Positions 1-32,000 of a stretch of 32,000 nt of DNA are shown piece after piece. How positions within the stretch are numbered: position 1 is the first letter of the stretch; each line of letters begins with the position of its first letter. The DNA lies in contig CP144769.1 of assembly GCA_036689235.1 (NCBI GenBank), positions 60,001 through 92,000 of the forward strand, given 5' to 3'. Source of the DNA: Candidatus Saccharimonadota bacterium (GTDB lineage Bacteria; Pseudomonadota; Gammaproteobacteria; Enterobacterales; Enterobacteriaceae). The notes beneath the pieces were generated by a model. The model worked only from the letters and a program-made list of their open reading frames with translations, was not told the origin of the DNA and did no database searches. A program made the position numbers and the translations under genes.

Positions 1-517
1 TTTATATTTATTAATATTTAAAAAATATTATTATATATTTATAATTATTTTATGAATTATTAAATTAAAAAAAAAGAATAATATTATTATTATATAATAT
101 ATAATTTATATAATATTAATAATTATTATTTAATATTAATTTTAAATTTTATATAATATTTGTTTTTTTTTAAAATAAATATTTAATAGTAATTTTAATT
201 TTAAATAAGAATATATTAATAAATATAAAATTGATAAAATAATAAATTTAATAAATTTAATAATTATATATTATTTAATAAATTTAATTTTTAATTATTT
301 ATATAAATATAAATAATTAATAAAAATATTACATTAAATAATTATAATTTTAATAATTTTAAAATTAAATTAAATAAATAATTTTTTAAATTATTTATTT
401 ATTTTAAATATTTTAGTTATAATTATAAAAGAAAATAAAAAATAAATTTATATTATTTAATATAAAATTTAATAATTTTTTTTAAAAAAAAAATAATTAA
501 TTAATGGGAAAATAATT

Positions 518-769
518 ATGAATAAATTAAAAAAAAAAAATAATAATTTATATAAAAATAAAATTAATAAAAGTAAAAAATCCATGATTAAAACATATAT
601 TAAAAAAGTTAAATTATTAATTAATAAAAATAATAAAAAAGAAGCTTTAAGTATATTTCGTGTATTACAATCTAATTTAGATAAATTATCTTTAAAAAAA
701 ATTATTCATTTTAATAAATCTTCTAGATATAAATCTGTTTTATTAAAACTTATTAATAAAATAAATTAA
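518..769 (+). CDS. rpsT: 30S ribosomal protein S20
   Basis: 83-aa basic ORF. SMIKTYIKKVK and KKIIHFNKSSRYKS match the E. coli S20 segments RSMMRTFIKKV and KGLIHKNKAARHKA. GGGA lies 8 nt upstream of the ATG. Confidence 0.85.
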   Translation: MNKLKKKNNNLYKNKINKSKKSMIKTYIKKVKLLINKNNKKEALSIFRVLQSNLDKLSLKKIIHFNKSSRYKSVLLKLINKIN

Positions 770-1551
770 TTTTTTTTTTTAATTATATAATTTATTATTT
801 TACAGTATTGTTTTATATTAATTTTATTTATTCTAATATTTGGATTTATATTAATTTTTTTAAATTCATTTATATTAATAAATTTTTTTAAATTATTATA
901 TATTTTTTTATTTTTTTTATTAAATATATTATTTAATATATGTATACATAATTTCATATTTTTTATATTATTTATATTATTGTTTGATTTTAATTTTAAT
1001 AATATTGATTCTATTTTTGGTTTAGGAATAAAATTATAATTTTTAATTTTTAATATTTTTTTAATTTTAAAAAATATATTTAAAATTATAGTAGTTTTTG
1101 AGTGATTTTTATAATTTAATAATAAATTATTAGCTAATTCTTTTTGTAATAAAATATGTATATCATATATCATTTTATAATTTTTTATTAATTTATATAT
1201 TATTTTATGAGATATATAATATGGAATATTACCAATTATTCTAATTTTTTTTTTATATATATTAAAATTAAATTTTAATATATCTATATTTATAAATTTA
1301 ATTTTATTTTTTTTTTTTTTACAGATTTTAATTAAATTTTCATCTATATCTATAGCTGTAATATTTTTATTATATTTATATAATTCTTTTGTTAATATTC
1401 CTTTTCCACAACCTATTTCTAAAAATATATCTTTTTTTTTTGGTTTTATAAAATATATAATTTTTTTTATAATTTTTTTATTAATTAAAAAAATTTGTCC
1501 TATATCTTTATACATATTTTTTTTATTATATAAATTTTCTTTTTTCACCAT
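766..1551 (-). CDS. rsmA: 16S rRNA (adenine1518/1519-N6)-dimethyltransferase RsmA/KsgA
   Basis: GQIFL (GQNFL), EIGCGKGILT (SAM-binding motif EIGPGLGALT) and GNIPYYIS (GNLPYNIS). The start is uncertain: ATG at 1551 is preferred, with TTG at 1557 or ATG at 1515 also possible. ATG 1551 overlaps the ileS 3' end. Confidence 0.85.
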   Translation of the reverse strand: MVKKENLYNKKNMYKDIGQIFLINKKIIKKIIYFIKPKKKDIFLEIGCGKGILTKELYKYNKNITAIDIDENLIKICKKKKNKIKFINIDILKFNFNIYKKKIRIIGNIPYYISHKIIYKLIKNYKMIYDIHILLQKELANNLLLNYKNHSKTTIILNIFFKIKKILKIKNYNFIPKPKIESILLKLKSNNNINNIKNMKLCIHILNNIFNKKNKKIYNNLKKFININEFKKININPNIRINKINIKQYCKIINYIIKKKN

Positions 1552-30008: not shown

Positions 30009-31265
30009 TTATATTTTTTTAATTTTTATTTTTAAATTACTAAATTTTTTTATTATATTTTCATAACCTCTATAAATATGGTGTATAGATTTTATAATTG
30101 TTTTTCCATATGCTATACATCCTGCTAATAATAATGTTATAGAACATCTTAAATCTTTTGCTATTATTGTTTTTCCAAATATTTTTTTTACTCCATAACA
30201 TATAATTTTATTATTTATAATTTTTATGTTTGCTCCCATTTTTTTTAATTCATTTATATGAGAAAATCTTTTTTTAAATATATTTTCTTTTATTATAGAT
30301 TTTCCTTTTGATATGCTATTTAATAATGTAAATTGTGGTTGCATATCTGTGGGAAAATAAGGATATGGATTTGTTATAATATTAATTGATTTACATTTTT
30401 TATTTTTCATATCTAATTTAATAAAATCATTTTTTATTTTTATTTTTGCTCCGCATAATTTTAATTTTTTTAATATTATTTTTAATAAATTAGGATTTGT
30501 ATTATAACAAATTATTTTTCCTTTAGATATAGCTGATGCTATTAAATATGTTCCTGTTTCTATTCTATCTGGTAAAATTTTATATTCACATGATGATAAT
30601 ACTTTTATTCCATATATTATTATTATATTTGTTCCTCCTCCGTATATTTTAGCTCCACATTTATTTAAAAAATTAATCATATCTATTATTTCTGGTTCTT
30701 TTGAACAATTTTTTATTATAATTTTTCCTTTTACAAATATTGATATTAATATACTAGTTATTGTTGCTCCTACACTTTTTTTTTTTAATAAAATTATATT
30801 TGATATTATTTTTTTTTTTATTTTAGCTTTTATTATATTATTTTTATATTTTATTTTTATTCCTAAATATTTTAATATATCTAAATGTAAATTTATTGGT
30901 CTATTTTCTATATTACATCCTCCTGGAGTATCTAAAATTATTTTATTACATCTTATTAATATTGTTGGTAATAATCATATTGATGCTCTTATTTTTTTAA
31001 TTAATTTTTTTGGAATATAGTTATTATTTATATATTTTGCGTTTATTATTATTATATTTTTTTCTTTTTTTATTTTTATACCTATTTTTTTAAATATTTT
31101 TAAAGTTATACTTATATCTTTTAAATTTGGTATATTTTTAATTATTATTTCTTTTTTAATTAATAAACAACTATATAATATTGGTAAAGCTGAATTTTTT
31201 GATCCTGATATTTTTACTTCTCCTTGTATTTTATTTGGTCCTAATATTATAAATTTTTTTTTCAT
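30009..31265 (-). CDS. murA: UDP-N-acetylglucosamine 1-carboxyvinyltransferase MurA (418 aa under code 4)
   Basis: The two fragments are joined via TGA 30975-30977. GEVKISGSKNSALPIL; the hand-translated bridge ..RASIW LLPTILIRCNKIILDTPGGCNIENRPINLH retains the active-site Cys (E. coli LPGGCAIGARPVDLH); the C-terminal half ends ..HIYRGYENIIKKFSNL. Confidence 0.92.
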
Positions 31266-31638
31266 ATTTATTATTTTTATTTTATTTTATTATTTTAAAA
31301 TACATTTTTTTTTTCTTTAATTAAATTATTTATTATAATTTTATTTTTTTTTATTAAATATTATAGTATTATTTGTATTAATGAATTAAATATATATTAT
31401 TTAATTATTATATTTATTTATATTTAATATATTATATAATTTGTTATAATTATTATAAATATATATATATGTATATATATTAAAAAGAATGTATTATTTA
31501 TGTTTCAATTATATATTTTATTATTTAAAAAAAATATTATAATATAAAATATAATTTTAAATTGTATTTGTTTATTTTTATATTAATATATATTATTAAT
31601 ATTAATAATAATTTATTTATTTTTTATATATTTTATTT

Positions 31639-32000
31639 ATGAAATATAAATCTGCTTTTTTAAATAATATTAAAAATTATTTAAATATTAAAAAAAATGG
31701 AGTATATATAGATTGTACATTTGGTTCTGGTTATCATTCTTTTGAAATATTAAATTATTTAAATAAAAATGGTAAATTATATTCTTTTGATTGTGATCCT
31801 ATTTCTATTAAAAAAGGAAAAAAAAAAATTAATGATTATCGTATAAAATTAATAAATGATAATTTTTCTAATTTAAAATATTATATAAATTATTATAATT
31901 TATATAAAAAAATTAATGGTATAATTTTTGATTTGGGATTATCTAATATTCAGTTAGATAATTCTAATAGAGGATTTTCATTTTTAAAAAATGGTCCATT
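31639..32000 (+). CDS. rsmH: 16S rRNA (cytosine1402-N4)-methyltransferase RsmH/MraW, 5' part (runs off the window)
   Basis: ATG at 31639. GVYIDCTFGSGYHS (DGTFGGGGHS), SFDCDPISI (D.D..A), IIFDLGLSNIQLDNSNRGFSFLKNGP (DLGVSS.QLD...RGFSF...GPLDMRM). Confidence 0.88.
   Translation, partial: MKYKSAFLNNIKNYLNIKKNGVYIDCTFGSGYHSFEILNYLNKNGKLYSFDCDPISIKKGKKKINDYRIKLINDNFSNLKYYINYYNLYKKINGIIFDLGLSNIQLDNSNRGFSFLKNGP

What the first reader, a model, noticed from the sequence alone, without database searches (positions are those of the whole stretch)
1..32000. UGA is read as tryptophan throughout (translation table 4) in a proteobacterial background
At least 17 genes are split in the standard-code ORF track, yet each is a single frame interrupted only by TGA. 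Where I can align by eye, the TGA falls on an invariant Trp:
- dnaK GDA-W (4812-4814)
- hslV AKD-W-RTD (27775-27777)
- hslU RNR-W-RRM (28178-28180)
- ileS CNRC-W-HY (1625-1627)
- cysS RPG-W-HIECS (12921-12923)
- rpoH IY-W-IKAEI and N-W-KIV
- ssb VQ-W-H
- nusB YS-W

cysS alone carries 8 such codons. All genes end in TAA (I saw no TGA terminators). TGG is still used for Trp as well (ileS GWDCHG, lon SEWSQ), so both codons coexist. Outside Mollicutes, UGA-to-Trp is known from only a handful of tiny-genome insect symbionts. It is a lineage-defining trait and dictates how this window must be annotated.
Basis: partly seen in the sequence, partly recalled or inferred. Interest (0 to 1): 0.7.

Follow-up and report, generated by a model that had tools for sequence, protein, structure and literature searches.

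The report
UGA read as tryptophan in Stammera
This window comes from Candidatus Stammera capleta, the tiny-genome gut symbiont of tortoise beetles, and its genes do use TGA as a tryptophan codon rather than a stop, but this has been known for this organism since 2017 and is already built into its public annotation.

Summary
The window (14.7% GC) holds 29 protein genes, and 17 of them carry 62 in-frame TGA codons in total. I masked each TGA as X and aligned the proteins to their E. coli K-12 orthologues. 57 TGAs fall on Trp, 3 on Phe/Tyr, 1 on Ala and 1 lies past the E. coli C-terminus (P about 6e-109). That last one is TGG in Buchnera.

All 28 complete genes end in TAA. In-frame TAA and TAG counts are zero, against 2189 and 507 off-frame. 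TGA:TGG is 62:4, close to other A/G-ending codon pairs. The TGAs are conserved in seven other Stammera genomes, with occasional TGA/TGG swaps.

The interpretation (translation table 4) is supported but not new. Lon is 84-85% identical to Ca. Stammera capleta genomes. The exact table-4 CysS and RpoH sequences are already in NCBI on a 239,864-bp contig. UGA-to-Trp in Stammera was reported by Salem et al. 2017, as cited in the papers read here, and was recovered by Codetta.

A CCA-only result would therefore not refute the reading. The tRNA-Trp and prfB of this genome could not be reached.

The parts
1526..4327 (-). ileS, isoleucine-tRNA ligase: 19 in-frame TGA and 3 TGG
   Evidence: 18 TGAs align to E. 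coli Trp and 1 to Tyr (2060-2062). The TGGs at 4037-4039, 3764-3766 and 2930-2932 also align to Trp. 38% identity over 923 aligned residues. Stop is TAA.
4509..6413 (+). dnaK: 1 in-frame TGA (4812-4814)
   Evidence: GDA-X-IQV aligns to E. coli GDA-W-VEV; 74% identity.
9143..10432 (+). hisS: 2 in-frame TGA (9464-9466, 9950-9952)
   Evidence: Both align to E. coli Trp. TIGR00442 hisS, E=7e-102. Both are TGA in all 7 Stammera loci. A table-11 gene call of the same DNA splits the gene into 3 pieces (L002).
12330..13727 (+). cysS: 8 in-frame TGA
   Evidence: 6 align to E. coli Trp, 1 to Ala (13647-13649), and 1 lies past the E. coli C-terminus (13710-13712); the last one is TGA in all Stammera loci and TGG in Buchnera L017. 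TGA/TGG swaps occur at codon 216 (L004) and codon 205 (L008).
13947..16283 (-). lon: 3 in-frame TGA and 1 TGG (16269-16271)
   Evidence: All 3 TGAs align to E. coli Trp and are TGG in Buchnera. The TGG is TGA in L003-L005.
18140..18568 (-). nusB: 1 in-frame TGA (18503-18505)
   Evidence: YS-X aligns to E. coli YS-W; TGG in Buchnera.
18802..19749 (-). trxB: 1 in-frame TGA (19597-19599)
   Evidence: EN-X-PG aligns to E. coli EN-W-PG. TIGR01292, E=4e-97.
19844..21130 (+). serS: 2 in-frame TGA (20219-20221, 20870-20872)
   Evidence: Both align to E. coli Trp. TIGR00414, E=1e-125.
22206..23852 (-). rpsA, ribosomal protein S1: 7 in-frame TGA
   Evidence: 6 align to E. coli Trp and 1 to Phe (23616-23618). 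Six are TGA in all six Stammera loci that cover rpsA; the seventh (codon 81, the one aligned to E. coli Phe) is AAT in L007.
23888..24340 (-). ssb: 3 in-frame TGA (24218-24220, 24176-24178, 24074-24076)
   Evidence: All three align to E. coli Trp. The start ATG is at 24338-24340.
24454..25818 (-). dnaB: 1 in-frame TGA (24973-24975)
   Evidence: Aligns to E. coli Trp; 55% identity.
25935..26495 (-). rsmD: 3 in-frame TGA
   Evidence: 2 align to E. coli Trp and 1 to Phe (26175-26177). TIGR00095, E=4e-41.
26617..27489 (+). rpoH: 5 in-frame TGA
   Evidence: All five align to E. coli Trp. The exact W-containing 290-aa sequence is in NCBI.
27529..28053 (+). hslV: 1 in-frame TGA (27775-27777); GTG start
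   Evidence: AKD-X-RTD aligns to E. coli AKD-W-RTD; 72% identity. GTG at 27529 directly precedes the catalytic Thr-Thr.
28073..29392 (+). hslU: 2 in-frame TGA (28178-28180, 29201-29203)
   Evidence: Both align to E. coli Trp; 66% identity.
29474..29749 (+). tusE (DsrC family): 2 in-frame TGA
   Evidence: PF04358 assigned to the Logan gene call. By eye, both W positions match the two Trp of E. coli TusE (SQ-W-SEP and EH-W-EVV).
30009..31265 (-). murA: 1 in-frame TGA (30975-30977)
   Evidence: RASI-X aligns to E. coli RASI-W. TIGR01072, E=1e-140.
518..1551 (.). rpsT (518-769, +) and rsmA/ksgA (766-1551, -): TGA-free genes ending in TAA
6448..9126 (.). dnaJ (6448-7569, +), tsaB (7962-8546, -) and a short rodZ-like gene (8740-9126, +): TGA-free, TAA stops
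10436..11869 (+). der (engA): TGA-free, TAA stop
   Evidence: TIGR03594, E=1e-59.
11862..12288 (+). rnpB, RNase P RNA class A
   Evidence: Rfam RF00010, 147.5 bits against a gathering score of 100, full-length match. It accounts for the spurious 51-aa ORF with one TGA at 11922-12074.
13873..13947 (+). tRNA-Arg(UCU), the only tRNA gene in the window
   Evidence: ARAGORN and Rfam RF00005. There is no tRNA-Trp in the window or in its flanks.
16286..18081 (-). clpX (16286-17473) and clpP (17488-18081): TGA-free, TAA stops
18579..18800 (-). infA: TGA-free
   Evidence: 71% identity to E. coli IF-1.
21161..22168 (+). dusA: TGA-free
   Evidence: NF008774, E=6e-72.
29778..29990 (+). rpmE: TGA-free
31639..32000 (+). 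rsmH, 5' part, running off the window
   Evidence: PF01795 on the full gene in L085.

Best explanation
The window is a stretch of the chromosome of Candidatus Stammera capleta, the extracellular, genome-reduced gammaproteobacterial symbiont of cassidine leaf beetles. In this genome UGA is an ordinary tryptophan codon (translation table 4) and termination relies on UAA.

Shown here: in-frame TGAs sit on conserved Trp positions; TGA and TGG interchange between Stammera strains as synonymous codons do; and no gene ends in TGA.

Inferred: extreme A+T mutation pressure has converted nearly all TGG to TGA. The 62:4 ratio resembles AAA:AAG and the other A/G-ending pairs.

Inferred from the literature on other Stammera genomes, and not tested on this one: release factor 2 (prfB) has been lost, so nothing competes for UGA. 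UGA would then be read by the single tRNA-Trp, which keeps a CCA anticodon and a normal 5-bp anticodon stem, so decoding would be near-cognate (C34 opposite A). How that reading is made efficient is not known.
For: - **Trp columns.** 57 of 62 in-frame TGAs align to Trp of the E. coli orthologue with TGA masked during alignment; 3 more align to Phe/Tyr. P is about 6e-109.
- **Standard-code relative.** 11 of the TGA positions covered by the standard-code Buchnera locus L017 are TGG there.
- **Conservation.** The TGAs are conserved in 7 Stammera genomes whose proteins are 40-93% identical. TGA/TGG swaps occur at cysS codons 205 and 216 and at lon codon 9.
- **Stops.** 28 of 28 stop codons are TAA. 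In-frame TAA/TAG are 0, against 2189/507 off-frame.
- **Codon bias.** The A-ending fraction is 0.94 for TGA/TGG and 0.98-0.99 for the Lys, Glu, Gln, Leu and Arg A/G pairs.
- **Gene calls.** The same DNA gives intact hisS, cysS and lon when called with table 4 (L001) and fragments when called with table 11 (L002).
- **Organism.** Lon is 84-85% identical to Ca. Stammera capleta CP144815 and CP144817, and the Stammera loci carry the same genes around lon. The exact table-4 CysS and RpoH sequences are in NCBI on a 239,864-bp contig.
- **Literature.** Stammera UGA-to-Trp is cited in PMC10540940, PMC8629427 Table 1, a bioRxiv preprint on code-4 annotation of 50 genomes, 10.1101/2023.12.12.571295, and PMC13462651. 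trnW is CCA with a 5-bp anticodon stem and prfB is mostly absent.
Against: No tRNA-Trp gene and no prfB locus lies in the window or in the 9.2 kb to its left and 3.7 kb to its right that I could recover. The decoding step is therefore borrowed from other Stammera genomes.

Some code-4 Stammera assemblies are reported to keep prfB, so loss of RF2 in this genome is not certain.

Five TGAs do not sit on an E. coli Trp: Tyr, Phe, Phe, Ala, and one beyond the C-terminus.

No protein-level evidence is available.
Confidence: 0.96

Rival explanations
1. Standard code with an ambiguous UGA. RF2 is still present, and the TGAs are leaky stops read through at some frequency by tRNA-Trp(CCA). This would be an intermediate state like the one proposed for the Providencia symbiont PSAC of leeches.
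For: Published Stammera genomes have only tRNA-Trp(CCA), and some code-4 assemblies retain prfB. prfB status of this genome was not tested. UGG is retained slightly more often than other G-ending codons (4/66 against 64/3156, Fisher p=0.049).
Against: There are 62 TGAs in 17 essential genes, 19 of them in ileS alone. Partial readthrough would leave essentially no full-length product. No gene in the window ends in TGA (28/28 TAA), whereas PSAC still has genes that need TGA as a stop and only about 20% of its genes contain TGA. Here 17 of 29 genes (59%) contain TGA, matching the 62% reported for Stammera.
Confidence: 0.03
2. The genes are pseudogenes, or the assembly carries errors: TGAs are nonsense mutations in a decaying genome read with the standard code.
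For: Under table 11 the genes appear fragmented. Tiny symbiont genomes do accumulate pseudogenes.
Against: Only TGA interrupts the frames, never TAA or TAG, although TAA is 6 times commoner than TGA off-frame. There are no frameshifts. TGAs sit on Trp columns. They are conserved across 7 diverged Stammera genomes. The same DNA was assembled independently from two sequencing runs.
Confidence: 0.005
3. UGA is reassigned to an amino acid other than Trp: glycine (table 25), or selenocysteine/cysteine.
For: UGA-to-Gly exists in Gracilibacteria and Absconditabacteria.
Against: No TGA aligns to Gly or Cys. 57 align to Trp and 3 to aromatic residues. TGA interchanges with TGG among strains.
Confidence: 0.005

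Closest known systems
Candidatus Stammera capleta genetic code 4 (Salem et al. 2017, as cited in PMC10540940, PMC8629427 and bioRxiv 10.1101/2023.12.12.571295)
   Same: Same genus and same gene neighbourhood. TGA-Trp falls at the same codons in 7 other Stammera genomes. GC is about 15%. 59% of genes contain TGA here, against 62% reported. The exact table-4 protein sequences are already in NCBI.
   Different: Nothing of substance. This strain is 84-85% identical in Lon to the nearest genomes recovered in the scan, so it is a separate host-specific strain among the roughly 50 sequenced.
Candidatus Zinderia insecticola (Betaproteobacteria, 13.5% GC, code 4)
   Same: Tiny, extremely AT-rich insect symbiont. 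UGA is Trp, prfB is lost, and only a tRNA-Trp with a CCA anticodon is present.
   Different: The Zinderia tRNA-Trp(CCA) has a 4-bp anticodon stem, which was shown to boost UGA reading. The Stammera tRNA-Trp is reported to have the normal 5-bp stem, so that explanation does not carry over.
Candidatus Hodgkinia cicadicola, Candidatus Nasuia deltocephalinicola and Mycoplasmatales (code 4 with tRNA-Trp UCA)
   Same: UGA is read as Trp genome-wide and RF2 is lost.
   Different: These lineages changed the anticodon to UCA, which is fully cognate to UGA. Stammera did not.
Candidatus Providencia siddallii PSAC (leech symbiont), a proposed transitional state
   Same: Gammaproteobacterial symbiont with in-frame UGA at Trp positions and tRNA-Trp(CCA).
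   Different: PSAC keeps prfB, has TGA in only about 20% of its genes, and still has genes that need TGA as a stop. This window shows a completed reassignment.

Membership tests
Translation table 4 (UGA = Trp) genome | In-frame UGA codons fall on conserved Trp positions of orthologues | tested here: met
   57 of 62 fall on E. coli Trp with TGA masked during alignment; 11 are TGG in Buchnera.
Translation table 4 (UGA = Trp) genome | UGA is not used as a terminator, and reading through TGA creates no C-terminal extensions | tested here: met
   28 of 28 stops are TAA. Protein lengths match E. coli within a few residues. The only TGA past an E. coli C-terminus (cysS 13710-13712) is TGG in Buchnera and TGA in all Stammera loci.
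Translation table 4 (UGA = Trp) genome | TGA and TGG behave as synonymous codons between close relatives | tested here: met
   Swaps occur at cysS codon 216 (L004), cysS codon 205 (L008) and lon codon 9 (window TGG, L003-L005 TGA).
Translation table 4 (UGA = Trp) genome | Loss or decay of release factor 2 (prfB) | not testable with these tools
   prfB is not in the 45 kb recovered. The literature reports prfB absent from most Stammera genomes but present in some assemblies.
Translation table 4 (UGA = Trp) genome | A tRNA able to read UGA as Trp, classically tRNA-Trp(UCA) | not testable with these tools
   The only tRNA in the window and flanks is tRNA-Arg(UCU). The literature reports that Stammera always has tRNA-Trp(CCA) and never UCA, so this feature is not universal among code-4 lineages.
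Candidatus Stammera capleta | Closest sequence relatives and shared gene content | tested here: met
   The best Lon matches are 7 Stammera genomes (69-85% identity); the next best is Buchnera at 60%. The same genes, dnaK through rsmD, are found in L003-L009.
Candidatus Stammera capleta | Genome of about 0.22-0.34 Mb with about 14-20% GC | tested here: met
   Window GC is 14.7%. The exact proteins lie on a 239,864-bp NCBI contig. Published ranges are given.

The most novel reading that the evidence does not exclude
In this strain, as reported for other Stammera, UGA would be read by a tRNA-Trp that keeps the CCA anticodon and a normal 5-bp anticodon stem. The 62:4 TGA:TGG usage in essential genes means that reading must be efficient.

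If so, some unidentified feature makes it efficient. Candidates are a Hirsh-type change in the tRNA body (position 24 or 9), a modification or editing of C34, or a ribosomal change.

The slight excess of retained UGG in ileS and lon could be a trace of residual selection for the cognate codon. This open question applies to the genus as a whole. The window itself holds no evidence on it.
Probability: 0.45. Interest if true: 0.5.

Novelty: already known. Interest (0 to 1): 0.2.

Why it matters
In practice it decides the annotation. With table 11, 17 of the 29 protein genes in this window are broken into fragments, and such fragments are already in public protein collections. With table 4 every gene is intact.

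Biologically, Stammera is one of the few bacteria outside Mycoplasmatales with UGA read as Trp. It is the clearest published case in which the only tRNA-Trp keeps both a CCA anticodon and a normal anticodon stem, so how UGA is decoded there remains open. The window adds no new information on that question.

Tried and rejected
- **tRNA-Trp search.** ARAGORN on the window, on the Logan contigs of the same strain (L001, L002, L083, L085) and on 7 Stammera loci found only tRNA-Arg(UCU). Rfam on the window and flanks found only that tRNA and rnpB.
- **Extending the window.** Exact-protein look-ups added 9.2 kb on the left and 3.7 kb on the right. The 239,864-bp NCBI record was never returned as a locus.
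- **Walking further.** I considered walking along a relative's chromosome with the search for homologous proteins plus look-up of encoding contigs. Three steps of about 10 kb at 13 CPU-hours each gave roughly a 15% chance of reaching trnW, with no synteny clue, so I did not do it.
- **Published trnW sequence.** I looked in the supplements of PMC13092985 and PMC10540940 for a Stammera trnW sequence and found nothing held.
- **Small ORFs.** The 51-aa ORF at 11922-12074 (1 TGA) and the ORFs on the opposite strands of rpsT and ssb (469-765 on the minus strand, 23892-24407 on the plus strand) came out of a naive longest-ORF pick. They were rejected: the first lies inside rnpB, and the others overlap real genes.
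- **Paralogue hits.** Low-identity tblastn hits (ileS against other tRNA ligases, hslU against clpX) were ignored when counting codon conservation.
- **Nucleotide identity.** A blastn summary between the window and the Stammera loci was swamped by AT-rich spurious matches. I used protein identities and exact-seed matching instead.
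Full report
**What the window is.** The window is 14.7% G+C. Read with TAA and TAG as the only stops, it resolves into a compact, 90%-coding set of housekeeping genes on both strands:
- rpsT, rsmA, ileS, dnaK, dnaJ, tsaB, a short rodZ-like gene, hisS, der
- rnpB (an RNA gene), cysS, tRNA-Arg(UCU)
- lon, clpX, clpP, nusB, infA, trxB, serS, dusA, rpsA, ssb, dnaB, rsmD
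- rpoH, hslV, hslU, tusE, rpmE, murA, and the start of rsmH

These assignments rest.

**Which organism.** A scan of one genome per bacterial species with the Lon protein returned seven Candidatus Stammera capleta genomes as the best matches (69-85% identity). The next best was Buchnera at 60%. NCBI taxonomy places Stammera in Gammaproteobacteria, Enterobacterales. Two public sequencing runs contain contigs identical in DNA to the window. The exact protein sequences lie on an NCBI contig of 239,864 bp, and these include CysS and RpoH translated with Trp at every TGA. The window therefore comes from an already deposited Stammera chromosome.

**Checking the observation.** I fetched the E. coli K-12 orthologues. 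I replaced each TGA by X so that it could not steer the alignment, then aligned globally (tusE by eye).
- 57 of the 62 TGAs fall on a Trp of the E. coli protein.
- Three fall on Phe or Tyr.
- One falls on Ala.
- One (cysS 13710-13712) lies just past the E. coli C-terminus.

Trp is 0.96% of those E. coli proteins, so the binomial probability is about 6e-109.

In the other direction, of 88 E. coli Trp residues 55 align to TGA and 3 to TGG. The rest align mostly to Phe, Leu or Tyr codons or to gaps.

**Why these are not broken genes.** The frames are interrupted only by TGA. In-frame TAA and TAG counts are zero, while the two off-frames of the same genes hold 2189 TAA, 507 TAG and 352 TGA. Random nonsense decay in so AT-rich a genome would give mostly TAA. 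There are no frameshifts.

In seven other Stammera genomes, whose proteins are 40-93% identical to those here, nearly every covered TGA is again TGA. A few positions switch between TGA and TGG: cysS codon 216 in L004, cysS codon 205 in L008, and lon codon 9, which is TGG here and TGA in L003-L005. In the standard-code relative Buchnera, 11 of the covered positions are TGG, including the cysS codon beyond the E. coli C-terminus.

The same DNA was called as intact hisS, cysS and lon in one public assembly and as fragments in another, evidently with different translation tables.

**Stops and codon bias.** All 28 genes whose end lies in the window stop at TAA. Protein lengths match E. coli closely, so no gene appears to need TGA as its terminator. 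TGA:TGG is 62:4. Its A-ending fraction of 0.94 compares with 0.98-0.99 for the Lys, Glu, Gln, Leu and Arg A/G pairs. TGA therefore behaves as the AT-favoured synonym of TGG. The small excess of TGG is of borderline significance (Fisher p=0.049).

**How it most likely works.** Shown here: UGA is a sense codon for Trp, and UAA is the working terminator in this window.

Taken from the literature, and not tested on this genome:
- Stammera has lost prfB in most genomes and never has a tRNA-Trp(UCA).
- Its single tRNA-Trp keeps the CCA anticodon (PMC10540940; gTranslate preprint).
- That tRNA has a normal 5-bp anticodon stem. This differs from Zinderia, where a 4-bp stem was shown to promote UGA reading (PMC13092985).

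Decoding would therefore be near-cognate, unopposed by RF2, and helped by something not yet identified. I could not reach trnW or prfB of this genome.

**Comparison with what is known.** UGA-to-Trp in Stammera is attributed to Salem et al. 2017 by every paper read. Codetta lists Stammera among the known reassignments and recovers it. [quoted passage not shown] The share of genes containing TGA here is 17 of 29, or 59%, against 62% reported for Stammera.

- A CCA-only tRNA-Trp would not refute the reassignment in this genus.
- The trait is not universal in the genus. A basal Stammera clade with prfB is reported to use the standard code. All seven Stammera loci I compared use TGA at Trp positions.

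**Verdict.** Interest is low. Its main practical value is as an annotation instruction: use table 4. The one open question it touches is how a CCA-anticodon tRNA-Trp reads UGA efficiently, and the window holds no evidence on that.

Noticed in passing
window 11862-12288 (+): A full-length RNase P RNA gene (rnpB, Rfam RF00010, 147.5 bits) fills the der-cysS spacer. Its first 8 bases overlap the end of der. A 51-aa ORF with one TGA at 11922-12074 lies inside it and is spurious.
   Followed up: yes
window 1-517, continuing into L083 1341-2448: A 1.1-kb stretch between rpsT and mrdA has 2.4% G+C, no ORF longer than 44 codons, and no tRNA or Rfam match. Other spacers are nearly as extreme: 7570-7961 at 4.1% and 31266-31638 at 3.5%. 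It may be the remains of lost genes or a regulatory or replication-related region.
   Followed up: partly
window 4037-4039, 3764-3766, 2930-2932 (ileS); 16269-16271 (lon): These are the only four TGG codons left in genes. The three in ileS all sit on invariant Trp residues, two of them in N-W-C motifs. TGG is kept slightly more often than other G-ending codons (6.1% against 2.0%, Fisher p=0.049). If the tRNA-Trp anticodon is CCA, this could reflect residual preference for the cognate codon, or it could be chance.
   Followed up: partly
L001 and L002 (same DNA as window 1828-17569 and 6337-14134): Public gene calls for identical DNA differ. One assembly was called with TGA as sense and gives intact hisS, cysS and lon. 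The other was called with TGA as stop and gives fragments. A 173-aa CysS fragment is even the representative of the protein cluster (P0004). Code-4 genomes called with table 11 are putting truncated proteins into databases.
   Followed up: partly
window 27529-27531: hslV starts at a GTG placed directly before the catalytic Thr-Thr. It is the only non-ATG start among the 29 gene models. The first ATG, 14 codons downstream, would remove the active-site threonine.
   Followed up: yes
window 8740-9126 (+): The RodZ-like protein is only 128 aa, against 337 in E. coli. It matches only the N-terminal helix-turn-helix part (NF008109 positions 9-87) and has a hydrophobic tail, so the periplasmic domain appears to be lost.
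   Followed up: partly
window 30009-31265 and 8740-9126; L083 2449-6466; L085 7302-10397: For a genome of about 240 kb, many cell-wall and cell-shape genes are kept: murA, rodZ, mrdA, rodA, dacA, murE and murF, plus a partial gene at the L085 contig end that is probably mraY. Several tRNA and rRNA modification genes are kept too: dusA, tusE, tsaB, mnmA, rsmA, rsmD, rsmH. The cell-wall retention fits an extracellular symbiont.
   Followed up: no
window 1526-1551 and 766-769: Neighbouring genes overlap. The end of ileS overlaps the start of rsmA by 26 nt on the minus strand. The 3' ends of the convergent genes rpsT and rsmA overlap by 4 nt.
   Followed up: no
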